Shown: positions 2,256 through 50,950 of the stretch, in pieces
How the letters are laid out: the number at the start of each line of letters is the position of its first letter
Numbering within the stretch: position 1 is the stretch's first letter
Sequence record: PZ379176.1
Direction: 5' to 3' (one strand)
Length of the DNA: 64,000 nucleotides
Source: a phage
The notes under the pieces: generated by a model
Told to the model about the DNA's origin: nothing
Seen by the model: only the letters and a program-made list of their open reading frames with translations
Database searches by the model: none
Translations under genes and position numbers: made by a program

Positions 2256-2567
2256 ATGAAAGCACGAAGAACTATATGGACTCCGATGCAGATTGAAAAT
2301 CTTCGGAGACTAATCAAAGAGTACTCGGTTCAAGAAGTTGCTCAGATTATGAATGTAACGGAGAATGCAGTTAACGCAGCTTGTACTAAATTCGGAATAT
2401 CAAGAGCTTCAATCCGAGTTAAATGGTCTGAAGAAGAAGACCAGTTCCTTATCCGTAATGCTGGGTTCATGTCTATTCAGAGAATGGCTGACATGCTCGG
2501 TAGAAGTTATGCTGCTGTACAGAACAGAGCATGTATGCACCTTAACATTAGCCTCAAACTTAAATAG
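2256..2567 (+). CDS. putative DNA-binding regulator with two tandem helix-turn-helix-like repeats
   Basis: GGAGG RBS; repeated segments SVQEVAQIMNVTENAVNAA and MSIQRMADMLGRSYAAVQNRA. Confidence 0.5.
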   Translation: MKARRTIWTPMQIENLRRLIKEYSVQEVAQIMNVTENAVNAACTKFGISRASIRVKWSEEEDQFLIRNAGFMSIQRMADMLGRSYAAVQNRACMHLNISLKLK

Positions 2568-2575
2568 GAATCAAT

Positions 2576-2830
2576 ATGAAAGTTAACGAATTGAACAAAA
2601 CTATCAAGACTGTGAAACTCCACACTCTGAAGAAGGGCGATACCTTCCGGCTGGAAGAGAACGGTCCAATTCATATGGTCTGTACTGCGGCATCTACTAA
2701 TTGGGTAGAAGTTGCACGAGATCGAGTCGTGTGTGTCAGACTGGAAGATGGACACTTAAGTGGCCCCGTTGAGGGCATCTCTGTTATTCCTGTTAAGGTT
2801 GAAGCTAACGTTATTAAGGATTCTAAATGA
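2576..2830 (+). CDS. hypothetical protein, tandem paralog 1 of 4
   Basis: Four consecutive 81-84 aa ORFs with overlapping stop/start codons and a shared N-terminal pattern. Confidence 0.55.
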   Translation: MKVNELNKTIKTVKLHTLKKGDTFRLEENGPIHMVCTAASTNWVEVARDRVVCVRLEDGHLSGPVEGISVIPVKVEANVIKDSK

Positions 2831-3078
2831 AGATTACCCACAAGAAAGAAGAAGTGACCACGATTGATCTCAACTCCCTCCCCAGCGGAGCAGTGTTTAA
2901 ATTCCCTGAGAGTGCTACTCTCTATGTTAAAGGGTCTGTGTCTGAAAGTCCTAATGTAACCGTTAACTCTGATCGAACAATTACTCTTCGTCTATCCGAT
3001 GGTAACGTAACAGCACCTTCTATCTGGTGCCGAGTTGTTCCTGTATCAGCAGAACTTTTGGTGGATAATACGCAATGA
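2827..3078 (+). CDS. hypothetical protein, tandem paralog 2 of 4
   Basis: As above; ATGA stop/start overlap. Confidence 0.55.
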   Translation: MKITHKKEEVTTIDLNSLPSGAVFKFPESATLYVKGSVSESPNVTVNSDRTITLRLSDGNVTAPSIWCRVVPVSAELLVDNTQ

Positions 3079-29437: not shown

Positions 29438-29597
29438 CTCTGAGAAAAAGAAGATCTCAGTATTTAAAGAACCTGTAGTTTATAAAGACTCTATCAGAGA
29501 TCAATATAATGAGATGTTAAAGAAACAAGCTGATTCTAATCTTCGTTATCAGAGGATAATAGAACAAACTAACTTTAAAGGTTTACTTGAATGGTAA

Positions 29598-30013
29598 CTT
29601 ATATCCTTTACTTTTTAGCTTTCTTAGGAATAATCTTTTTATCTATTATTCTTGAATTTGGTTTAAGTAGGTTAGTTAATTATTTAGGTAATAAGTAATT
29701 AATATTCTTTTAAATAGAGAATCAAAGTCCCTAGGAGTCCCTACAACCTAAATCAAGGATTCCTTAATTCTCTATTTTTATCTCGCAGGTGGCTCCTGCC
29801 CTTCGGTACTTGCAAGGGATTCTGTGAATTGCCCAATATACAAGCCTGCAATAACTTTATCAGCTATACAATATATACATTACTAGTGTGTTATATCTAC
29901 TACCAAAGATACTTATATTATATAGTACTCTTATCGGTATAAGCGTAATGTATACTATACATAACCGCTCAAAGAGAGCAACAATCTTTCAAATTAAATA
30001 AGGAAATTAAAAT
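29598..30013 (+). promoter_or_regulatory. 416-bp AT-rich ORF-poor region upstream of the SSB-like gene with inverted and direct repeats and TAATGTATA motif copies on both strands; candidate promoter hub and/or replication origin
   Basis: AAATAGAGAAT (29712-29722) / ATTCTCTATTT (29767-29777) inverted repeat flanking two GTCCCTA direct repeats; TAATGTATA at 29946-29954 (+) and 29874-29882 (- strand reading). Confidence 0.45.
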
Positions 30014-30760
30014 ATGTCTATGATTCCAACTATCGCAACTGCTTCCCGTAAATCCAACTACGATGTAATCCCTGATGGTGAATACGAAGCACGTATCGTT
30101 CGTGTAGTAGGTTTGGGTGTTCACAATCGTGACCCTTGGATTGACCCGAAGACCAAAGCAGTAACTCCTAAGAATCCGGCTTTCCGTATGGATTTAGCTT
30201 TCGAGCTGATTGGTGTTGATGCTACTGGTAAAGATTCCGATGGTAAGGCATTAGAACCACGTCCAGCTTGCCAGTTCAAGAGCTATGATGTAAACCCACG
30301 AGCTAAGAACTCTGGTATTCTTGATCTTTGCAAAATGATTGACCCAAGTATTCAAGCACTGAAAGGTGATCTGTCTTGGTTCAAGGATGTTCTGTTAGGT
30401 CAGCCTGTTAACATTCTGGTTAACTCTTATACTAACAAATCTGGTGAAGTTAAAAACTCCATCAAGACCATTTCTCCAATCCCAACCAAATATCGTGCAG
30501 CAGTTGGTGAAGCTCGTAGTCCTCTGGTATTCTTCGAACCGTATGCTGAAACCGATGAGAACGTAGCATCCTATCAACTGATGTTCCCGTTCCAGCGCAA
30601 CCTGCTTACTCAAGCTAATGACGCTAAGAACATGCCTCTGGCTGGTCGTGAAATTACTCGTGCTTCTGAAACAGAGCAGAAAGAAGCTACTCCTTCAATC
30701 CCTACGATTGATAAAGAGCCTGCTTCTACTTACGAAGACGACAACGATAGCCCATTCTAA
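30014..30760 (+). CDS. single-stranded DNA-binding protein-like (T7 gp2.5-type), acidic C-terminal tail ending DDNDSPF
   Basis: Strong RBS AAGGAAATTAAAAT-ATG; acidic tail with terminal aromatic residue as in SSBs; followed by strong terminator. Confidence 0.5.
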   Translation: MSMIPTIATASRKSNYDVIPDGEYEARIVRVVGLGVHNRDPWIDPKTKAVTPKNPAFRMDLAFELIGVDATGKDSDGKALEPRPACQFKSYDVNPRAKNSGILDLCKMIDPSIQALKGDLSWFKDVLLGQPVNILVNSYTNKSGEVKNSIKTISPIPTKYRAAVGEARSPLVFFEPYAETDENVASYQLMFPFQRNLLTQANDAKNMPLAGREITRASETEQKEATPSIPTIDKEPASTYEDDNDSPF

Positions 30761-30781
30761 TAACTCTCCTTGTTATAGCTT

Positions 30782-30806
30782 AGCCACCTCCGGGTGGCTT
30801 TTTTCG
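30782..30806 (+). terminator. rho-independent terminator
   Basis: AGCCACC-TCCG-GGTGGCT hairpin followed by TTTTTTCG. Confidence 0.7.
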
Positions 30807-30817
30807 TTGGAGACAAC

Positions 30818-31168
30818 ATGCAAAACACATTAAGTGATAACTTAGGGTTTATCGTTTTCTCAGCTCTTGTATTCTTTGGTGGTATGAAGTTTAACGAATA
30901 TCAAACAGACAGCAGTAATCTGGACAAAGAGAAGCACCAGCAAGAGTTAGAGATTGAAAGAAGTAGAGCAGCTGATGAAGTTGCTCAGAGAGTTCTTACC
31001 GGTTTATCTAACTGGAAGAAGAACACGGAAACCGTTTATAAAGAGATGCATTATGAGAAAACTAAACCAGTTTTTTATAATGTCTGCGCTAGTGATGAGT
31101 ATGTCAGCTTGTTCAACGAGCGACAACAGCAGGCAATCAATGCCCTTACCAACAAACCTAAAAGCTGA
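30818..31168 (+). CDS. i-spanin-like protein (N-terminal transmembrane helix plus charged coiled-coil region)
   Basis: Track ORF 30794..31168 trimmed to ATG 30818; hydrophobic LGFIVFSALVFFGGM; a lipoprotein ORF is embedded in another frame over its 3' half. Confidence 0.45.
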   Translation: MQNTLSDNLGFIVFSALVFFGGMKFNEYQTDSSNLDKEKHQQELEIERSRAADEVAQRVLTGLSNWKKNTETVYKEMHYEKTKPVFYNVCASDEYVSLFNERQQQAINALTNKPKS

Positions 31169-31312
31169 ATGTAGGGTTGACCTGCCTCTTTTAGAAAGTG
31201 CTCAAGGAAAAGCATTAGCCACTACGTTGGAGTGGTATCAGGACCAGTACACAGAATGTGCTGCCAATCACAATGGATTGTTAGAAGCTCTGAAAGAGCG
31301 TGGAATAGAATA

Positions 31313-31313
<1 letters not shown>
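31053..31313 (+). CDS. o-spanin-like lipoprotein overlapping the 3' end of the preceding gene out of frame
   Basis: ATG 31053 inside track ORF 30954..31313; signal peptide ending MSAC (lipobox-like); Rz/Rz1-type overlap architecture. Confidence 0.45.
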
Positions 31314-32799
<1,486 letters not shown>

Positions 32800-32809
<10 letters not shown>

Positions 32810-33336
32810 ATAAGTTTAACCTTATGGAAGAAGAGATTGCTGATCTGTGTCACAAATTAAGAGATAAGACCAGAACGATTTCTATGTTACGTGCAGTTAT
32901 TGATAGCTATCGTAAATCTGTTGAAGAAATCTCTTCGTGTTCTGCTGATACAGAAATTCGGTATGCAATGAAAAGGTTGATAGTAAAGCCGCCAGTAGGT
33001 GAAGAGTATCCAATTTATTCCTCTGTTCCTGTAGTCAGTTTTAAGCCTACAACTGAACAAACCAGCAAAAGAAGTCCAGCTTTAGACACTATGGTTGGGG
33101 GTGCACACTATAACCCTGAATCTAAAATCATTCAGCCTGTTGAGTTTTACCATGCAAACCCTCAGTTGAACTTCCAACAAACCAATATGATCAAATACGC
33201 TTATCGACACAAAGATAAGAATAAGGTTCAGGATTTGTTGAAGGTTGTTCACTACGCCCTTCTTGAGTGTGGGTTTGAATACCCTGAAGAGTATGATAAC
33301 TTCCGCAATGAAATCCGTAAGCTGTTAGGAGAATAA
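32800..33336 (+). CDS. hypothetical protein
   Basis: ORF track. Confidence 0.45.
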
Positions 33337-33337
33337 T

Positions 33338-34156
33338 ATGGAAGACGTTAAGCTCCCTGAGGTAGCTATAGTGGATGCTGACGTTCTTCGATATGAAGTG
33401 GGTGCTCTTACTCAGGAGCATCCCTTTCTTGACACAGGACGTGTTCCAGTTGATTATAATTTCATGATTGAACGACTTCAGTACAAGATTGATACAATTA
33501 TAGCTCGCTCAGGATGTAGTAAGGTTGTGTTCTACTTCAGCGAAGGTGGTAATTTCCGTTTCGATGTTGCTAAGCAGCAAGATTACAAAGCAAATAGACC
33601 TCCCGGAGAAAGACCTTTTCACTGGCAAAACGTTGGTGATTATATTAAAGGTAAGTATGAATACATAGATGTATTTGGGAGAGAGGCTGATGATGCACTA
33701 GCTGAAAGGCAACGTAGAGATAAGAATACTATCATCTGTACTAGAGACAAGGATTTGTTGATAACTCCCGGATGGCATTATCGTTGGGCTTGTGGAGAAA
33801 GACAGAAAGAGGTTCCTCCTCACTACGTATCTGATTTAGTTTCATGGCAAAATTTCTTCTATCAGATGCTGGTTGGAGATGGTACAGATAATATCCCCGG
33901 ATGTGGAGAACGTAAAGAAGTTATGTGGGGTGGTAAGCTCCAGCTTCGACGTCAAGGAATAGGGAAGAAAGCAGCAGCTAAACTATTGGCTGGTGTTACA
34001 GATAAGTGGACCATGTATCATATAGTACGAATGGAATATTATAAGAAGTTCGATACTGAAGATGAAGAGAAGATGCTTGAGAATGCTCGGCTGCTCTTTG
34101 TTGGTCAGACTCCGGAAGACCTGTTCGACTGGACATGGTTAGATAAATCTTGGTAA
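33338..34156 (+). CDS. 5'-3' exonuclease / flap endonuclease (T7 gp6 / Pol I 5'-nuclease family)
   Basis: KANR, READD, TRDKD, GDGTDNIPG and GIGKKAAAKLL segments. Confidence 0.7.
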   Translation: MEDVKLPEVAIVDADVLRYEVGALTQEHPFLDTGRVPVDYNFMIERLQYKIDTIIARSGCSKVVFYFSEGGNFRFDVAKQQDYKANRPPGERPFHWQNVGDYIKGKYEYIDVFGREADDALAERQRRDKNTIICTRDKDLLITPGWHYRWACGERQKEVPPHYVSDLVSWQNFFYQMLVGDGTDNIPGCGERKEVMWGGKLQLRRQGIGKKAAAKLLAGVTDKWTMYHIVRMEYYKKFDTEDEEKMLENARLLFVGQTPEDLFDWTWLDKSW

Positions 34157-34957: not shown

Positions 34958-35282
34958 GAACTGACATGATCACACAATCAGATAAAAATAAACTCTTCGA
35001 CTTAATCCACGACCTATTAGAAGCTCAGAGCTTTATCGACAATGCCGATACTTGGGAGATGGAAGCAGCTGGAAAAGCTTTTGATGAAAGTGAAGAGAAA
35101 CTTACTAATTTTATAAACACAATCTAGGGGGGTTATATGAATGAAGAAGTTGTTATTCTTGGAAGTAAATCAGATTGGTTCTACGGAGGCATCTCAGGGT
35201 GCTTTGAAGATGAACGTCCAGACCTCTGAAGAAAATTGGGATGTATGACGAATTTGATGGTTTTTAAAACTTAGAAACAAAC

Positions 35283-35316
35283 AAAGCCCCTTCCTTTCGG
35301 TTGGGGCTTTTCTTTT
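35283..35316. terminator. bidirectional rho-independent terminator between the convergent + and - transcription blocks
   Basis: AGCCCC...GGGGCT stem with T-rich tracts on both sides (TTTTCTTTT on +, TTTGTTTGTTT on -). Confidence 0.6.
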
Positions 35317-35317
35317 A

Positions 35318-38300
35318 TCACTCCTTAGGTCGAACTCTTACACGGAGTCTCGATTGACGCTTACTGCGTTCAAGCTTCTCTGACAATGAGCCACGTTTAA
35401 TCTTCGGCTTCCCTTCGTCATTAAACTTCTCCAAGAACTGCAAGTACTCAGTACGATTCGTTGTCTTGTAAGAAGGAATCTTAATATCAGGGTTCTCTTC
35501 AATTACACGTCTCATCTTCGCTACATCATCCCTACCAAGCAACTTACTCTTAGCCTGTTCAGCTGTAGAACCAAAGATCTTCTCCAGTGCTCTGGATTTG
35601 TTACCACCTGCGGAAGAAGCACCAAGTTTAGCAATGGCAGAGTAATCATCAGCACTAAACCAAGCTACCGGATTATCACCATACTTCTTCTTGTTTTCAG
35701 CAGCAGTCTGCAATGCACGTACAAAGCGACGGTTGTTACCAGCCTTATCTGCACCATGAACCCTGTCTAAAACTTCAGCCACACTAGCCAACTCATCCAA
35801 GCTCTTCCCACTCAAGAAAGCTTTCTCTACTTTATCAGCAAAAACCTCTTCCTGTTGTTTAATGCTTTCCAAGATATCAGAATTTGCTTGAGATCTTTCA
35901 TCATCAGGCAGAGCAGAACGAATCTTCTCCATCTCCAACTCTTCCTCTTGCAGTTTCTTAATATCAGAGTCAACCTTCTGAGCCTCCTCAATAGCCTTCC
36001 TAGTATCCGCATCCAAGTTATCAAGTTTACCTTCAGTATCTCCAGTAACCTTAACAATCTCTTTCTCGATAGGAGTCATTGATTCGTACTTCTTAGCGAA
36101 CTTCTCAACATCAGCCTCAATACGAGAGCGAGCATTCTGATGTTCAGTTGGAGTCATAGGCTTCTCGAGAAGTGCATAACGGTTATCCATATAGGAACCA
36201 GCAAACGCTTCAGCATCCTCTCTAGATATGCCCTTATCTTCCATAGTACGCATCAGGCGGCGATGAATATCATCACGTTGACGTTGTACTGCCATAAGAT
36301 CATTCTCACGCTCTTGGGCCGCTTTAAGCTCTTCACTGCGCTTAACTCTCTTGTCCACATCAAACTTGCGGTTCATCTCTTCCGCTTGCTCATACATCTT
36401 GTTCCACTTAGCCTGACGAGCATCTTCCTCTGCATCAGTTAAACGACGCTGACGATCAAGGTAGTCTGACTCGGCGTTATGGATACGTTCAATGTAACTA
36501 CGGAACTTCTCTGGAGGAACTGGAGAGTTCTTATCGTGGTGAGCAGCCAACTGTTTCAGTGTACGAGATTCCTGAGCCTCACGAACAGGTTTAGGTAAAC
36601 CTTCCATCATCTTCTCAATCTCACTCTTCTGAGCTGCAATAGCCTCTAGAGTTTTACGTTCATTCTCAACAGCAGCTTTAGCATCCGAACGAGCCTGAGC
36701 CTTTTTCCTGAGTGTAGCAAGACGTTCTTCACGAGCCTGTAAATGCTTAGCAGCAGCTTCGTACTGAGAGTTCTTGTTAGCTTTGTTGAAGGCATTCACT
36801 TCTCTGTTATAGGTGTTAATAAACCCATCCCAAATATCCTTCATCTGACCAACTTCCAAAGCCTCTTCCCTACCAGCCTTCTCTGAAGATTTAAACTTTC
36901 CATCTACAAAGTCATTCATCAATTTACGCATAGCGTCTTTCTGAGCAGGACGTAAAGGTTCTGCATCAATCAAAGTATCAATCTCAGACTGAAGCTCTTT
37001 CTTCTGGTCAACCAGCTTAGGAGCATTCTTGTTATCGAAAGCTTTATTCTCTTCTAGAGCTTGTTGGTACAGTCTATCAAACTCATCTTCACGCTGCTTC
37101 TGATACAACCTTTCAGCACGACGTTTCAGACTATCCAAGTTAGTTACGTTCCCACCTAAACCTTTCTCTTCAGCACGTAATGCCTTAGTAGCAATGTCTT
37201 CTGGCAGACCACGTTCTTTAACCCATTCAGCAAAGTTAGTTCGTACAGTGTTGTTCTTAGCAGTAGCAATACCTTGCTGAGAAGCCAGCTGGTTACGAGC
37301 CATTTCTTCATGACGTTCAGTGTTGATAGCATTATCTTCCTGACGAATACGACGCATCAGTTCCTTAGGATCACCTTTATAGGCCAAGAAGTTTTCAGCA
37401 GTAGCTTTAGCTTTAGCAGCCTTAGAGTACAGAGAACGAGCAAAACGTTCTGCACGATCTTTAGTAGCCTGACGAGCAGCACTAGACATAGCAGCTAAAC
37501 GTTCTACACCACTTGCCGGTTTAACGTCCTGTACAGCTTCCTTAGGAGCTTTAGGAGCACGAGCAGGTAATGGCTCAGCTTTGACTGTTGGTTCCTCTAC
37601 GGTTGGTTCTGGAGCCTGTGCGGCCTCTTCTTGAGCACGTTGCTGTTCCATTGCACGACGCTCCTCTAGAGGGTTACGAGCAGGGAGAGGTTCAGCCTGT
37701 GGAGTTTGTTCGACCGGAGCTTCTTGAGCAGCCAATGCCTCTTCTTCAGCGCGACGCTGTTCAGCCTGACGGATAGCGCGTCTTTGCGCAACTAAATCAC
37801 GAGCTGTAAGAGGAGTTTCTTGAGGAGCAGAAGAAGGAAGATTTTCTTCCGTCACAGTACTAGAAGAAGGCTCCCGAACCGGTTCGGTTTCCACGTCATT
37901 TTGCGTCTTAAATTTAATGTCATCAACAACTGGTTCTTCTTCCATTTTAGCACGAGCTTCATCAGCAGTAGATTTAGCACGAGCAACTTCCAAATCACCA
38001 CGAGCAAGAGAGCGGATAGCTTCGCTGTTAGATTCTTGTTGCTTAACACGTTGAGAGCGAGCACGCTGAGAAGAGAAGCGATTCAGAGCATACTTAGCAG
38101 CACCAAGAGTGTTCATTACCAGACTAGGTGAAGAAGCCTCACGGAATCCATCATCAGTCAGGGAAGTCCAACCACGGTCTTGATTGCTCATGAACTTAGC
38201 TGTATTGTTCAGAGTGTAAGCATCTTGAATAGGATTAAAACCTTCAGGCATACCTTTCAGTTTCTTCAACCCACCAATAGCTTTCTTCATCTCTGGAGAA

Positions 38301-39739
38301 ACATTATCAGCCATCTTCTGTAGTTCAGCAGCTTTCTCTACAAAGTTGTTAAAGTCTTCACCATCACGAGCTTTGAATCGATTTGCTTCATTATAGAAAG
38401 TCTTGTAAGCATCAATGAAGTCACGGTCGGCTTGTGTACGATTCTTAATATCAATCGGACTACCAGTAAAATCACCAGAAGCTCGGAGAGAGGTTAATTC
38501 ACGGTCTAGATTATCTAGAACATCTGTAAGAGCTTTCGTGTTGTCTTTGGTGTAGTCAGCCATTGCATCCTTCATAGCAACAGCCTGCTTCTGGTTGTGC
38601 TCGTTATCAGCGAATGCTTTACCACGAGTCTTAGCAGGAGAAGCTAAAGGGTTGAGGCCCGGAATGTTGGAATGTTCTTTCTGAACGGAAGCAGCTTTCT
38701 CAGCACGAGCTTGGTCAGTATTAAGAATACGCTGAGCGGCAGGAGAATCTACAGCAACAGCATCTGTAATACGGAATCCATTCTCATCCAGAAGGTTCAG
38801 AGCAGAAGCAGCGTTAGCAGTTTCAGCTTTAGAGTAAGCTTCTTTCAATTCATCAATATTCTTAGCACTACGAATCAGTTCATCATCAGCAGCAATATCG
38901 GTCTTCGCATACTCTGGAGTGTTCTTGAAGACAGCAGAATCCGGACGGCTAATCAAACCATGAACCCCACCAACTGCACCACCGAATGCAGCACCCATAG
39001 CACCTTCTTCGATAGCACCCTCTAATACATTAGCAAAGGTTGTATCATCTCCATGCTTGTTCTGAGCTTCAGCAGCACCTACAAGAGCACCACCTTTAGC
39101 ACCAGCCACTGCGTTAGTAGCAACGTTCTGACCAATACGTCCAAGTGTGGACTCAGCTGTACCAACAGCGCCCGGAAGGATTCTCTGAGCCGCATAGTTA
39201 GCACCACCAACCAAGGCTGCATCTAGAATAGATTTATCTTCCCCCTCTTCAGGGGTTTGGTCTGCATATGCACGACCTGTCTCACGACCTGCGATGATAG
39301 CAGCAGCAGCCAATGGGTTAGCAACAGTCATACCAATATCACCAGCAACGCCAGCATACTGACCTACAGTTTTACCAATCCCATCCTCAATCTTATCCAT
39401 ACGTTCTTTCAGAAGATTCTGAGAGTTCTCTTGGATACGCTTACCATAACTAGTTTGTGCTCCAGCTAGATTCTCACCAATCTCAACTAAACCACCAATA
39501 CCTTTAGCAGCACTAGCTGCAATATTTGCACCACCAGATTGAAGAGCATTTGACACACCTTGAGCAAACTCACCTATAGCACCACGTTCTTCTTGTTGTG
39601 GTTGTGCTACTGGCTGTTCCTCAGGAATAGAGCCACCTGCTGCCTTATATTGTTCTCTCATTTGAGCTTGTTGCTCCGGAGAGGCATTCAGATACGCAGG
39701 AGCTTTGGAAGCTTCTTCCCACGGTTTAATGTTAGCCAT
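35318..39739 (-). CDS. large internal virion / ejection-type protein (1473 aa), coiled-coil rich
   Basis: Track ORF 35318..39784 trimmed to ATG 39739 (AAGGAG RBS); long charged heptad-like central region; last gene of the structural block. Confidence 0.55.
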   Translation of the reverse strand: MANIKPWEEASKAPAYLNASPEQQAQMREQYKAAGGSIPEEQPVAQPQQEERGAIGEFAQGVSNALQSGGANIAASAAKGIGGLVEIGENLAGAQTSYGKRIQENSQNLLKERMDKIEDGIGKTVGQYAGVAGDIGMTVANPLAAAAIIAGRETGRAYADQTPEEGEDKSILDAALVGGANYAAQRILPGAVGTAESTLGRIGQNVATNAVAGAKGGALVGAAEAQNKHGDDTTFANVLEGAIEEGAMGAAFGGAVGGVHGLISRPDSAVFKNTPEYAKTDIAADDELIRSAKNIDELKEAYSKAETANAASALNLLDENGFRITDAVAVDSPAAQRILNTDQARAEKAASVQKEHSNIPGLNPLASPAKTRGKAFADNEHNQKQAVAMKDAMADYTKDNTKALTDVLDNLDRELTSLRASGDFTGSPIDIKNRTQADRDFIDAYKTFYNEANRFKARDGEDFNNFVEKAAELQKMADNVSPEMKKAIGGLKKLKGMPEGFNPIQDAYTLNNTAKFMSNQDRGWTSLTDDGFREASSPSLVMNTLGAAKYALNRFSSQRARSQRVKQQESNSEAIRSLARGDLEVARAKSTADEARAKMEEEPVVDDIKFKTQNDVETEPVREPSSSTVTEENLPSSAPQETPLTARDLVAQRRAIRQAEQRRAEEEALAAQEAPVEQTPQAEPLPARNPLEERRAMEQQRAQEEAAQAPEPTVEEPTVKAEPLPARAPKAPKEAVQDVKPASGVERLAAMSSAARQATKDRAERFARSLYSKAAKAKATAENFLAYKGDPKELMRRIRQEDNAINTERHEEMARNQLASQQGIATAKNNTVRTNFAEWVKERGLPEDIATKALRAEEKGLGGNVTNLDSLKRRAERLYQKQREDEFDRLYQQALEENKAFDNKNAPKLVDQKKELQSEIDTLIDAEPLRPAQKDAMRKLMNDFVDGKFKSSEKAGREEALEVGQMKDIWDGFINTYNREVNAFNKANKNSQYEAAAKHLQAREERLATLRKKAQARSDAKAAVENERKTLEAIAAQKSEIEKMMEGLPKPVREAQESRTLKQLAAHHDKNSPVPPEKFRSYIERIHNAESDYLDRQRRLTDAEEDARQAKWNKMYEQAEEMNRKFDVDKRVKRSEELKAAQERENDLMAVQRQRDDIHRRLMRTMEDKGISREDAEAFAGSYMDNRYALLEKPMTPTEHQNARSRIEADVEKFAKKYESMTPIEKEIVKVTGDTEGKLDNLDADTRKAIEEAQKVDSDIKKLQEEELEMEKIRSALPDDERSQANSDILESIKQQEEVFADKVEKAFLSGKSLDELASVAEVLDRVHGADKAGNNRRFVRALQTAAENKKKYGDNPVAWFSADDYSAIAKLGASSAGGNKSRALEKIFGSTAEQAKSKLLGRDDVAKMRRVIEENPDIKIPSYKTTNRTEYLQFLEKFNDEGKPKIKRGSLSEKLERSKRQSRLRVRVRPKE

Positions 39740-39777
39740 AACGTCTCCTTTTATAAATAAAAATGTCCTACCCCCTA

Positions 39778-39786
39778 TATACATTA
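39778..39786 (-). promoter_or_regulatory. TAATGTATA motif (read on - strand) about 40 nt upstream of the 1473-aa gene
   Basis: Plus-strand TATACATTA at 39778-39786. Confidence 0.4.
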
Positions 39787-50210: not shown

Positions 50211-50702
50211 TTAATATTTACCTTCGGTATAAAGATTAGCTTCTGCAACTCTTCTGTTATGAAGACCCTGACTTCTCTGCTTCTCTCCCTTGACCGTTAT
50301 TTTATCCCAACGAAGAAATTCGGAATAAACATCCCCCTTAACATCTCCATTGATTACTTTCCTTAACTTAGATGTGCTCAAAGCACCACTGCCAACGTTG
50401 AAGTTGAAAGAAGTGAGTGCATCAAACTCATGAACTAGCAAAGGAACCTTTATGTTCTTCTGAGTAGCACGAACAGAGTCTTGTGTGTCTCTATCTAGCA
50501 GAGCTAGACAATCCTCTATAGAATACGTTAATCCTTGTCTAACCGGATAACCATTCATATCACGCGTAGCCCCTACACATATAGTCCAGATACCTGCGGA
50601 ATCTTTATAAGCCTTGGTTCTCATACCCTCATGCTTCATGATGAATTCCATTCCAGCTGGGCTTAAGTTTAGTTGTACAGGTGGCAATGCGGCGTTATCC
50701 AT
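50211..50702 (-). CDS. endolysin (T4-lysozyme-like muramidase)
   Basis: N-terminal HEGMRTKAYKDSAGIWTICVG pattern (catalytic Glu, then D and T). Confidence 0.7.
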   Translation of the reverse strand: MDNAALPPVQLNLSPAGMEFIMKHEGMRTKAYKDSAGIWTICVGATRDMNGYPVRQGLTYSIEDCLALLDRDTQDSVRATQKNIKVPLLVHEFDALTSFNFNVGSGALSTSKLRKVINGDVKGDVYSEFLRWDKITVKGEKQRSQGLHNRRVAEANLYTEGKY

Positions 50703-50731
50703 TTCTAACCTCCTTTTGTGGTCCCTTTAAA

Positions 50732-50950
50732 TTAAGGTAGTATCTTTCTCAGAGCGTTAGATTCAGCATCAGGACAAATAACAACTAGATTATTTTGAAT
50801 GGTTCGCTGCTTACATTGAGAACTAAGTTTCTCTACTGGAGCAGGTGCTGTAACTAATGGATGAACTGCGCTTACAGGGATTGCAGTAGATACCACGACT
50901 CCTGCACCTAAACAAACTAAACCATATACAGCTTGTTTCATCATTTTCAT
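50732..50950 (-). CDS. small protein with N-terminal signal/transmembrane segment upstream of endolysin; candidate holin or lysis accessory protein
   Basis: MKMMKQ then hydrophobic AVYGLVCLGAGVVVSTAI. Confidence 0.4.
   Translation of the reverse strand: MKMMKQAVYGLVCLGAGVVVSTAIPVSAVHPLVTAPAPVEKLSSQCKQRTIQNNLVVICPDAESNALRKILP

What the first reader, a model, noticed from the sequence alone, without database searches (positions are those of the whole stretch)
30818..31313. Spanin-like overlapping gene pair located in the early block, far from the endolysin
A type-II membrane protein with periplasmic coiled coil (30818-31168) has a lipoprotein gene (31053-31313) embedded out of frame in its 3' half, the classic Rz/Rz1 arrangement. 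It lies on the + strand about 19 kb from the endolysin and holin-like genes (50211-50950, - strand). The lysis cassette would therefore be split across both transcription blocks, or this pair has a non-lysis role.
Basis: partly seen in the sequence, partly recalled or inferred. Interest (0 to 1): 0.45.

Follow-up and report, generated by a model that had tools for sequence, protein, structure and literature searches.

The report
Known phiEco32-type overlapping spanin gene pair
This is the already catalogued two-gene "spanin" pair of phiEco32-like coliphages, predicted to break the bacterial outer membrane in the last step of lysis; its position far from the holin and endolysin genes is conserved in these phages and has precedents, so it is not a new system.

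Summary
The window is a phiEco32-like Kuravirus, 99.9% identical to Shigella phage ShigP1 over 4 kb. Both ORFs exist at the stated coordinates. 30818-31168 encodes a 116-aa protein with one N-terminal hydrophobic segment. 31053-31313, in the +1 frame, encodes an 86-aa lipoprotein precursor (signal peptide, lipobox MSA|C, Ser at +2).

They correspond to phiEco32 gp39 and a 5'-extended gp38. Kongari et al. 2018 list this pair as an overlapped two-component spanin with the same 116-nt overlap.

Three details of the finding need correcting:
- The pair is overlapped, not embedded; the o-spanin runs 145 nt past the i-spanin stop.
- A coiled coil is not supported.
- The pair lies in the middle-gene cluster, behind the gp36-dependent P40 promoter motif and a conserved terminator, not in an early block.

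Both frames are under purifying selection. The pair, with its lipobox, persists down to about 30% identity in Felix O1-like, Erwinia and Sashavirus phages. In Sashavirus it closes a holin-endolysin-holin-spanin cassette. Phage SU7 has split the overlap with a homing-endonuclease insertion yet kept a lipoprotein signal.

The lysis genes are therefore split between the middle and late blocks. Dispersed lysis genes are already known from T4. No non-lysis role is needed. Function has not been tested experimentally for this family.

The parts
29946..29954 (+). P40-type promoter element TAATGTATA, recognised by the phage sigma factor gp36 (middle class). It is the nearest upstream promoter motif of the operon that holds the spanin pair.
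   Evidence: Exact match to the published gp36 promoter consensus, 60 nt upstream of the gene-40 homologue's ATG. PMC8948821 text and supplement list P40 = TAATGTATA, conserved in the phiEco32 subgroup. Activity in this phage is inferred, not tested.
30014..30760 (+). Homologue of phiEco32 gene 40 (248 aa, unknown function). It is the first gene after P40 and lies directly upstream of the spanin pair.
   Evidence: PHROG 6599, E 3.3e-118. Position matches phi32_40 in NC_010324.
30782..30805 (+). Intrinsic-terminator-like hairpin (AGCCACC-TCCG-GGTGGCT) followed by T6, between gene 40 and the i-spanin gene. Transcripts must read through it to reach the spanin genes.
   Evidence: Terminator scan. 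Hairpin, T-run and the following GGAG are conserved in all 8 other Kuravirus-like loci examined. An attenuating role is inferred.
30809..30812 (+). Shine-Dalgarno GGAG of the i-spanin gene.
   Evidence: Read from the sequence; conserved in relatives.
30818..31168 (+). i-spanin gene (116 aa), orthologue of phiEco32 gp39. N-terminal membrane anchor at residues 9-23 (nt 30842-30886), a predicted helical periplasmic domain, and one Cys (C90) invariant across the family.
   Evidence: ORF; hydrophobicity; PHROG 1152 'Rz-like spanin' E 2.7e-37; 99% identical to phiEco32 gp39; Kongari 2018 i-spanin family JH2; invariant columns in alignment A3.
31042..31045 (+). Shine-Dalgarno-like AGAG, 7 nt upstream of the o-spanin ATG, inside the i-spanin gene.
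   Evidence: Read from the sequence. Kongari 2018 Table S1/S5 mark the same element for phage NJ01.
31053..31313 (+). o-spanin gene (86 aa precursor, 67 aa mature), a 5'-extended version of phiEco32 gp38. Signal peptide at residues 1-19 (nt 31053-31109), lipidated Cys20 (31110-31112), Ser at +2, and periplasmic Cys40 and Cys69.
   Evidence: ORF and lipobox. PHROG 2425 E 3.5e-27 and a weak hit to PHROG 456 'Rz-like spanin' at 1.3e-3. Kongari 2018 lists the phiEco32 o-spanin as 86 aa at 35272-35533. Start, signal peptide and Cys are conserved in relatives down to about 30% identity.
31053..31168 (+). 116-nt dual-coding overlap (i-spanin frame 0, o-spanin frame +1).
   Evidence: Fraction of variable sites at the three positions is 0.22/0.16/0.34 in the overlap. 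Third positions vary at 0.58 in the i-only part and 0.79 in the o-only part. Fisher tests give p = 0.029 and 2e-7.
31313..31753 (+). Downstream macro-domain gene (phiEco32 gp37 homologue). Its ATG overlaps the o-spanin stop codon (TAATG). It is context, not part of the spanin.
   Evidence: Pfam Macro E 8.2e-11; sequence.
50211..50702 (-). Endolysin (GH24-type phage lysozyme, phiEco32 gp17 homologue) in the late, structural block. It is the functional partner of the spanin in lysis.
   Evidence: Pfam Phage_lysozyme E 3.7e-32; PHROG 7 E 3.8e-46; phiEco32 annotation.
50732..50950 (-). 72-aa protein annotated as holin (phiEco32 gp16 homologue), immediately upstream of the endolysin.
   Evidence: PHROG 11161 'holin' E 2.3e-48; annotation. 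It has one N-terminal hydrophobic segment followed by VSA|V. A 2026 Kuravirus paper found only a signal peptide and no transmembrane domain in the homologue, so holin function is unverified.

Best explanation
The two ORFs are the two-component spanin of a phiEco32-like Kuravirus (orthologues of phiEco32 gp39 and full-length gp38), in the overlapped gene architecture.

Proposed mechanism:
1. The pair is transcribed with the middle genes. RNA polymerase carrying the phage sigma factor gp36 starts at the P40 element (29946-29954), transcribes gene 40, and must read through a conserved intrinsic terminator (30782-30805) to reach the spanin genes. This would keep their dose low.
2. Ribosomes start independently at 30818 (GGAG) and, in the +1 frame, at 31053 (AGAG).
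3. The 116-aa product is anchored in the inner membrane by residues 9-23, with a mostly helical periplasmic domain.
4. The 86-aa product is exported, lipidated on Cys20, cleaved by signal peptidase II, and sorted to the outer membrane because residue +2 is Ser.
5. The two C-terminal regions bind each other across the periplasm. Invariant Cys90 (i-spanin) and Cys69 (o-spanin) are the likely sites of the disulfide links typical of spanins.
6. The complexes stay inert while caged by peptidoglycan. When the late-expressed holin and endolysin (50211-50950, - strand) degrade the wall, the complexes are freed and disrupt the outer membrane, most likely by fusing it with the inner membrane.

Shown here: the ORFs, the signals, dual-frame purifying selection, homology and synteny. 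Inferred: transcription pattern, topology, lipidation, complex formation and lytic function.
For: - Identity: the window is 99.9% identical to ShigP1 and 97.8% to phiEco32 over 29500-33500. The i-spanin and o-spanin proteins are nearly identical to the phiEco32 ones.
- Literature: Kongari et al. 2018 place phiEco32 in i-spanin family JH2 (with Felix O1) and o-spanin family NJ01. Their Table S4 lists it as 'ovl', 35417-35768 / 35272-35533, overlap 116.
- Family assignment: PHROG 1152 'Rz-like spanin', E 2.7e-37.
- Signals: one hydrophobic N-terminal segment in the i-spanin; signal peptide, lipobox and Cys with Ser at +2 in the o-spanin; periplasmic Cys count 1 + 2.
- Selection: third-position variability is 0.58 in the i-only part and 0.79 in the o-only part, against 0.15 and 0.11 at second positions. 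All three positions are damped in the overlap. Fisher p = 0.029 and 2e-7.
- Depth of conservation: the overlapped pair, with start codon, signal peptide and lipobox Cys, is kept in an IMG/VR relative at about 48% (i-spanin) and 55% (o-spanin) identity and in Sashavirus, Felixounavirus and Kolesnikvirus at about 25-36%. tblastn finds the i-spanin in 435 and the o-spanin in 254 phage records.
- Guilt by association: in Sashavirus Sergei the homologues (i-spanin 34%, E 1e-10; o-spanin 34%, pairwise E 9e-16) are the last two genes of a holin/antiholin-endolysin-holin-i-spanin-o-spanin cassette.
- Natural experiment: in SU7 an HNH-AP2 homing endonuclease sits in the former overlap. The i-spanin keeps FNERQQQA through synonymous recoding. 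The o-spanin has a different signal peptide that rejoins homology exactly at the Ala-Cys lipobox codons.
- No competitor: it is the only credible lipobox ORF in the window.
- Transcription context: exact TAATGTATA upstream of gene 40, published as the gp36-dependent promoter P40; conserved terminator.
Against: - No experiment on this spanin family was found. All assignments, including Kongari 2018, are bioinformatic for phiEco32.
- There is no Pfam or NCBIfam hit for either protein and no solved relative.
- Topology is not clear from the positive-inside rule. The N-terminal tail MQNTLSDN has no basic residue and net charge -1, and a Lys follows the hydrophobic segment. Kongari's table flags the same for NJ01.
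- The hydrophobic core is only about 15 residues long.
- The lipobox has Met at -3 (MSAC), which is less common than Leu.
- The pair is not linked to the holin and endolysin and sits in a different temporal class.
- The temporal class of genes 38/39 is taken from the cluster description and promoter map in PMC8948821. I could not read the primary macroarray paper (Pavlova 2012).
Confidence: 0.88

Rival explanations
1. The pair is a membrane protein plus lipoprotein with a non-lysis role during the middle phase, for example superinfection exclusion, receptor masking or envelope remodelling. Outer-membrane disruption would then be done by something else, or not need a dedicated protein.
For: The pair lies in the middle-gene cluster, about 19 kb from the holin and endolysin and on the other strand. 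In Felix O1-like and Erwinia phages the homologues also sit among early or nucleotide-metabolism genes (PseT, rII) rather than in a lysis cassette. No experimental lysis phenotype is published for this family. Early-expressed phage lipoproteins that block receptors do exist (T5 Llp; my own knowledge).
Against: The homologous pair closes a canonical lysis cassette in Sashavirus. All structural hallmarks of two-component spanins are present. There is no other spanin candidate in the 64 kb. Spanins unlinked from the holin and endolysin, and shown by complementation to be functional, exist in T4 (Kongari 2018). A spanin is expected to be harmless before the endolysin acts, so early synthesis is not a conflict.
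Confidence: 0.06
2. The downstream gene starts at the internal ATG used in the public records (window 31140; 57 aa beginning MPLPTNL...). It would then give a small soluble protein without signal peptide or lipid, so there is no o-spanin and the upstream extension is a chance open frame.
For: RefSeq phiEco32 (phi32_38), ShigP1 ('o-spanin') and Bas89 annotate the 57-aa form; EP335 annotates an even shorter ORF.
Against: The ATG at 31053, the basic n-region, the hydrophobic core and the lipobox Cys are conserved in every relative examined, down to about 30% identity. Of 254 tblastn matches, all cover at least 80% of the 86-aa query, and most of the listed ones start at residue 1. In SU7 the signal peptide was replaced by a different one that still ends in LMA|C. 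Variability is reduced at all three positions in the overlap. Kongari 2018 re-annotated it as 86 aa and reported 64 o-spanins annotated with wrong starts in public records.
Confidence: 0.03
3. The overlap is a chance alternative-frame ORF with no biological meaning.
For: Alternative-frame ORFs of 30-120 aa are common in the mechanical ORF list.
Against: 145 nt of the ORF lie outside the i-spanin gene, in sequence that would otherwise be non-coding. There, third positions vary at 0.79 and second positions at 0.11. The ORF is conserved across several phage genera.
Confidence: 0.01

Closest known systems
phiEco32 gp39 / gp38 (Kongari et al. 2018: i-spanin family 'JH2', o-spanin family 'NJ01'; PHROG 1152 and PHROG 2425)
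   Same: Orthologues. The proteins are nearly identical, with the same lengths (116 and 86 aa), the same 116-nt overlap and the same neighbours: gene 40 upstream, macro-domain gene 37 and sigma gene 36 downstream.
   Different: Nothing of substance, only a few amino-acid substitutions. The public records annotate gp38 with a truncated start that removes the signal peptide.
Phage P2 LysB / LysC (prototype of the overlapped spanin architecture)
   Same: Overlapped arrangement: the o-spanin gene starts inside the i-spanin gene in the +1 frame and extends past its stop. Presumed same function.
   Different: No significant sequence similarity for the window's proteins. Pfam LysC (PF23793) is hit only weakly and below threshold by 2 of 8 family members (E 0.0032) and not by the window's protein. 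P2 LysB/LysC lie in a lysis cassette (my own knowledge).
Lambda Rz / Rz1
   Same: Same predicted division of labour: an inner-membrane protein plus an outer-membrane lipoprotein, periplasmic cysteines, and an o-spanin encoded in the +1 frame.
   Different: Lambda's Rz1 is fully embedded within Rz; here the genes only overlap. No sequence homology was detected. The lambda Rz periplasmic domain has predicted coiled coils and Rz1 is proline-rich and unstructured. Here no coiled coil is predicted, and the o-spanin has 3 Pro in 67 residues and about 46% predicted helix. The lambda genes follow S and R directly in one late transcript.
T4 PseT.3 / PseT.2
   Same: Spanin genes unlinked from the holin (t) and endolysin (e) (Kongari 2018, Fig. 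8 legend). The o-spanin has predicted secondary structure and two periplasmic Cys. The Felix O1-type homologues of the window's pair sit next to a PseT gene, as in T4.
   Different: T4 has the separated architecture (no overlap). The T4 i-spanin has no periplasmic Cys. The two are placed in different sequence families by Kongari 2018.
Sashavirus (9NA-like) Sergei gp65 / gp66
   Same: Detectable homologues of both proteins (34% identity each) with the same overlapped layout and lipobox.
   Different: They are located at the end of a contiguous holin/antiholin-endolysin-holin-spanin cassette, whereas the Kuravirus pair is 19 kb from its endolysin.

Membership tests
Two-component spanin (functional class; criteria of Summer 2007 / Kongari 2018) | i-spanin: small protein with a single N-terminal transmembrane segment | tested here: met
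   One hydrophobic segment, LGFIVFSALVFFGGM (residues 9-23), Kyte-Doolittle 2.23 over 15 residues; none elsewhere. It is rather short at about 15 residues.
Two-component spanin (functional class; criteria of Summer 2007 / Kongari 2018) | i-spanin topology N-in / C-out (type II), with the bulk of the protein in the periplasm | tested here: inconclusive
   Charge distribution does not decide it: the N-tail has net charge -1 and no Lys or Arg, and a Lys follows the segment directly. [quoted passage not shown] Indirect support comes from the invariant Cys90 in the C-terminal domain. No dedicated topology predictor was available.
Two-component spanin (functional class; criteria of Summer 2007 / Kongari 2018) | o-spanin: signal peptidase II signal with lipobox Cys, and a residue other than Asp at +2 (outer-membrane sorting) | tested here: met
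   MRKLNQFFIMSALVMSMSA|CST: lipobox MSAC, Ser at +2. Cys20 is invariant in 8 family members spanning several phage groups. Actual lipidation is not testable here.
Two-component spanin (functional class; criteria of Summer 2007 / Kongari 2018) | The two genes are adjacent in an embedded, overlapped or separated arrangement | tested here: met
   Overlapped: +1 frame, 116-nt overlap, o-spanin extends 145 nt beyond the i-spanin stop.
Two-component spanin (functional class; criteria of Summer 2007 / Kongari 2018) | At least one periplasmic cysteine in the complex, for intermolecular disulfides | tested here: met
   i-spanin C90. Mature o-spanin C40 and C69. C90 and C69 are invariant across the family. 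Disulfide formation itself is not testable here.
Two-component spanin (functional class; criteria of Summer 2007 / Kongari 2018) | Required for outer-membrane disruption; complements a lambda Rz/Rz1 defect | not testable with these tools
   No experimental report for this family was found in the papers searched.
   o-spanin stop at 31313, i-spanin stop at 31168. Kongari Table S4 classes phiEco32 as 'ovl'.
Lambda Rz / Rz1 sequence families (Pfam) | Significant match to the Pfam Rz or Rz1 models | tested here: not met
   No Pfam family at E <= 0.1 except sub-threshold DUF3290 and DUF7333 for the i-spanin, and none for the o-spanin. NCBIfam gives none.
P2 LysC family (Pfam PF23793) | Match above the gathering score | tested here: not met
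   The window's o-spanin has no hit. Two of 8 family members hit at best E 0.0032 and 17.8 bits, against a cut-off of 27. Distant relatedness is possible but unproven.
Kongari 2018 i-spanin family JH2 / o-spanin family NJ01; PHROG 1152 / PHROG 2425 | Sequence membership | tested here: met
   Near-identity to the listed member phiEco32. PHROG 1152 E 2.7e-37, PHROG 2425 E 3.5e-27.
Unimolecular spanin (T1 gp11 type) | A single protein with an N-terminal lipobox and a C-terminal transmembrane segment | tested here: not met
   The lipoprotein has no hydrophobic segment after the lipobox (maximum Kyte-Doolittle 0.36 over 17 residues). No other lipobox ORF in the window qualifies.
Canonical contiguous lysis cassette (holin-endolysin-spanin) | Spanin genes adjacent to the holin and endolysin and co-transcribed late | tested here: not met
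   About 19 kb apart, on opposite strands and in different promoter classes. This is not a defining feature of spanins; T4 is the precedent.

The most novel reading that the evidence does not exclude
The pair sits in the middle-gene cluster, behind a strictly conserved terminator, and its Felix O1-type homologues also sit among early genes. The spanin complex might therefore be assembled long before lysis and have a second, pre-lysis job, such as tethering the envelope or excluding superinfecting phage. A related possibility is that lysis timing in Kuraviruses depends on an unconventional holin-free route: the annotated 'holin' looks like a secreted protein.
Probability: 0.05. Interest if true: 0.5.

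Novelty: already known. Interest (0 to 1): 0.1.

Why it matters
It matters little for discovery. The pair is a catalogued spanin of a well-studied phage group, and unlinked spanin genes are known from T4.

The practical value is for annotation:
- Most public Kuravirus records give the o-spanin a truncated start that removes its signal peptide, or call it hypothetical.
- PHROG 2425, the family it matches, carries no function label, so automated pipelines keep missing it.

The family also offers a clean natural example of overlap resolution, the homing-endonuclease insertion in SU7. It would be an easy, untested candidate for lambda-complementation assays of a spanin type that has no predicted coiled coil.

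Tried and rejected
- Pfam and NCBIfam scans of both proteins gave nothing significant.
- A profile search of the i-spanin alignment against PDB sequences returned only chance-level FtsB hits, E 0.24 or weaker.
- Single-sequence AlphaFold2 of the i-spanin gave pLDDT 56 and pTM 0.29. It is usable only as a hint of helical content, so I ran no fold search and make no coiled-coil claim.
- I tried to read the primary phiEco32 papers (Savalia 2008, Pavlova 2012). They are not held. Temporal class therefore rests on later papers that summarise them.
- A regex scan of every start codon on both strands, looking for a second spanin or a unimolecular spanin near the endolysin, found no credible candidate.
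- I considered and rejected the annotated short start at 31140, a chance ORF, and a non-lysis role; see the rival explanations.
- I deliberately did not spend the large protein-database searches or the metagenome and genome scans. The phage collection and IMG/VR already gave enough relatives, and the verdict would not change.
- IMG/VR yielded only 6 loci, one of them informative (L011; about 48% i-spanin identity).
Full report
**What the window is.** Region 29500-33500 is 99.9% identical to Shigella phage ShigP1 and 97.8% identical to Escherichia phage phiEco32 (Gordonclarkvirinae, Kuravirus). Ninety-nine phage records match it. The + strand from about 1 to 35 kb carries the early and middle genes. 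The - strand from about 35.3 to 63.5 kb carries the structural late genes. This is the published phiEco32 layout (PMC8948821).

**Observation check.** Both ORFs are present at exactly the stated coordinates.
- 30818-31168 encodes 116 aa. It has one hydrophobic segment (residues 9-23, LGFIVFSALVFFGGM) and a GGAG Shine-Dalgarno at 30809-30812.
- 31053-31313 lies in the +1 frame and encodes 86 aa, beginning MRKLNQFFIMSALVMSMSA|CST. That is a basic n-region, a hydrophobic core, lipobox MSAC with Cys20 (TGT at 31110-31112), and Ser at +2. Under the established +2 sorting rule, a non-Asp residue there directs the lipoprotein to the outer membrane. AGAG lies 7 nt upstream of the ATG.
- The endolysin (50211-50702; Pfam Phage_lysozyme E 3.7e-32) and the gene annotated as holin (50732-50950; PHROG 11161) are on the - strand about 19 kb away, between tail-fibre genes.

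Three descriptive details are wrong or unsupported.
1. The lipoprotein gene is not embedded. It ends 145 nt after the i-spanin stop, so the architecture is overlapped (116-nt overlap).
2. A coiled coil is not supported. Pepcoil found none in the phiEco32 orthologue, and Jpred gave 61% helix and 11% strand (Kongari 2018, Tables S2 and S3). My single-sequence AlphaFold model is helical but of low confidence (pLDDT 56).
3. The gene block is the middle class, not early (see 'Expression context').

**More than chance.** A scan of every possible start on both strands found four regex matches for a lipoprotein signal. Only 31053-31313 is credible. The other three lie antisense to, or out of frame inside, longer ORFs.

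I aligned the region from eight Kuravirus-like genomes and counted variable sites by codon position.

| Region | Position 1 | Position 2 | Position 3 |
|---|---|---|---|
| i-spanin only (i frame) | 0.29 | 0.15 | 0.58 |
| o-spanin only (o frame) | 0.43 | 0.11 | 0.79 |
| overlap (i1/o3, i2/o1, i3/o2) | 0.22 | 0.16 | 0.34 |

The single-frame parts show the usual coding pattern, with third positions free. In the overlap all three positions are damped, as expected for dual coding. Fisher tests for the drop at third positions give p = 0.029 (i frame) and 2e-7 (o frame).

**Identity.** The proteins are orthologues of phiEco32 gp39 and a 5'-extended gp38.
- The i-spanin matches PHROG 1152 'Rz-like spanin' at E 2.7e-37.
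- The o-spanin matches PHROG 2425 (no function label) at E 3.5e-27, and weakly PHROG 456 'Rz-like spanin'.
- Kongari et al. 2018 (PMC6139136) already list phiEco32 in i-spanin family 'JH2', with Felix O1-type phages, and in o-spanin family 'NJ01'. Their Table S4 gives 'ovl', i-spanin 35417-35768, o-spanin 35272-35533, overlap 116. These are the same lengths and the same overlap as here.
- Later Kuravirus genome papers also annotate the pair.

The finding is therefore already known.

**Depth of conservation and function by association.** tblastn finds the i-spanin in 435 phage records and the o-spanin in 254. Every o-spanin match covers at least 80% of the 86-aa query.
- The overlapped pair is kept, with start codon, signal peptide and lipobox Cys, in five more distant groups. 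One is an IMG/VR relative at about 48% i-spanin and 55% o-spanin identity (L011). The others are Sashavirus Sergei, a Felix O1-like phage and Erwinia phage Tian, at roughly 25-36%.
- Invariant residues are Cys20, Gly52, Cys69, Asn74 and Leu76 in the o-spanin. In the i-spanin they include Glu80, Phe86, Asn88, Cys90, Tyr95, Asn100 and Glu101. These all fall in the C-terminal regions, which is where spanin subunits are known to contact each other in lambda (established knowledge).
- In Sergei the homologues are the last two genes of a contiguous holin/antiholin-endolysin-holin-i-spanin-o-spanin cassette. This is the best available indirect evidence for a lysis role.
- In Felix O1-like phages the pair lies next to PseT and rII. 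That resembles T4, where the experimentally validated spanins PseT.3/PseT.2 are also unlinked from the holin and endolysin.

**A natural experiment.** In phage SU7 an HNH_3 + AP2 homing-endonuclease ORF sits where the overlap used to be.
- The i-spanin copy keeps ...FNERQQQA through almost entirely synonymous recoding and gains a new tail.
- The old o-frame there now runs into a stop codon after MKRLSQFFTMCVLVMSM.
- Downstream, the o-spanin has a different signal peptide (MLTKKKQKSCLVIFLASSLMA|C), partly encoded by the 3' end of the endonuclease gene.
- Homology to the other phages resumes exactly at the Ala-Cys lipobox codons.

So when the overlap was broken, both products were preserved and a lipoprotein signal was retained or rebuilt. 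That is strong evidence that the long, lipidated form is the functional one. Two further phages, E20-1 and PAS59, match the o-spanin only from residue 13. E20-1 has a 'homing endonuclease' annotated at the spot.

**Expression context.**
- An exact TAATGTATA lies at 29946-29954 (+), 60 nt before the gene-40 homologue. Published work identifies this as P40, one of six experimentally mapped promoters used by the phage sigma factor gp36. P40 is conserved across the phiEco32 subgroup. The cluster it lies in is the middle class.
- Between gene 40 and the i-spanin is a hairpin followed by a T6 terminator (30782-30805). It is conserved, together with the following GGAG, in all Kuravirus-like loci examined. 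There is no room for a promoter between it and the ATG.
- I infer that spanin mRNA arises by terminator readthrough from P40 or from upstream promoters, giving a modest dose from mid-infection on.
- The holin and endolysin genes (phiEco32 genes 16 and 17) lie in the late, structural block. The late class is also transcribed by the gp36 holoenzyme.

This poses no mechanistic problem. In the accepted model, spanin complexes are caged by peptidoglycan and act only after the endolysin has degraded it (established from lambda).

**Caveats.**
- No member of this sequence family has been tested experimentally, as far as the searched literature shows.
- There is no Pfam or NCBIfam family and no solved structure.
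- The i-spanin's N-in/C-out topology is not predicted by charge.
- The window lacks roughly 12 kb of the roughly 76-kb genome. The absence of another spanin candidate is therefore shown only for the 64 kb seen.

**Verdict.** This is a real feature, correctly recognised as a spanin pair, but ordinary and already catalogued. The corrections are overlapped rather than embedded, middle rather than early, and no evidence for a coiled coil. The only useful by-products are an annotation fix (o-spanin start at 31053, not 31140) and the SU7 overlap-resolution example.

Noticed in passing
window 31053 vs 31140 (also L001:4641-4814, L002:4641-4814, L014:1823-1996, L015:1871-1996): Public records give this gene a truncated start. 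phiEco32 RefSeq, ShigP1 (there even labelled 'o-spanin') and Bas89 use a 57-aa form beginning MPLPTNL. EP335 has an even shorter ORF. All of these remove the signal peptide and the lipidated Cys. The PHROG family it matches (2425) has no function label, so automated annotation keeps missing it.
   Followed up: yes
L012 (phage SU7, MZ342906) 1492-2529; probably also E20-1 (OP293233) and PAS59 (OQ921332): An HNH_3 + AP2 homing-endonuclease gene sits in the former i-/o-spanin overlap and converts it to a separated architecture. The short overlap segment is present twice. The left copy is synonymously recoded for the i-frame and has a stop in the old o-frame. The o-spanin has a new signal peptide that rejoins homology exactly at the lipobox Ala-Cys.
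   Followed up: partly
window 30782-30805: An intrinsic-terminator-like hairpin plus T6 lies directly in front of the i-spanin ribosome-binding site. It is strictly conserved in the Kuravirus-like relatives examined. It implies that spanin expression depends on terminator readthrough.
   Followed up: partly
window 31725-31754 (+): A strong sigma-70-like promoter match (TGGACA-18-TATAAT, 11 of 12) lies just upstream of the phage sigma-factor gene (31773-32420). PMC8948821 appears to mention a promoter in front of gene 36 (truncated passage), which would fit.
   Followed up: partly
window 29865-29964: The 315-bp intergenic region before gene 40 holds the P40 motif on the + strand (29946-29954). 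It also holds an exact TAATGTATA on the - strand (29874-29882) and two one-mismatch copies on the - strand (29865-29873, 29956-29964). A - strand copy would fire antisense into the upstream genes. Window-wide, one-mismatch matches are no more frequent than chance (17 found, 18.4 expected).
   Followed up: no
window 50732-50950 (-): The 72-aa 'holin' has a single N-terminal hydrophobic stretch followed by VSA|V. This looks like a cleavable signal peptide or a signal anchor rather than a typical holin. A 2026 paper on Kuravirus ZCEC16 reports only a signal peptide and no transmembrane domain for the homologue. The true holin of these phages may be unidentified.
   Followed up: partly
window 31311-31315: The o-spanin stop and the start of the macro-domain gene overlap (TAATG). 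This suggests translational coupling of the macro-domain gene to the o-spanin.
   Followed up: no
window 39737-39786 (-): The mechanical ORF call for the 1488-aa gp26 homologue starts at an ATG that lies inside a TAATGTATA promoter motif (39786-39778), the counterpart of the published late promoter P26. The real start is probably the in-frame ATG at 39739-39737, preceded by AAGGAG.
   Followed up: partly
L011 (IMGVR_UViG_3300013023_000001, 88-kb contig) 2564-3002: A divergent Kuravirus-like contig (i-spanin about 48% identical) has two extra small ORFs between the gene-40 homologue and the i-spanin. One ends in a long serine-rich tail (SSTSSDSWSSSCDSSSSSSSSSSCD).
   Followed up: no
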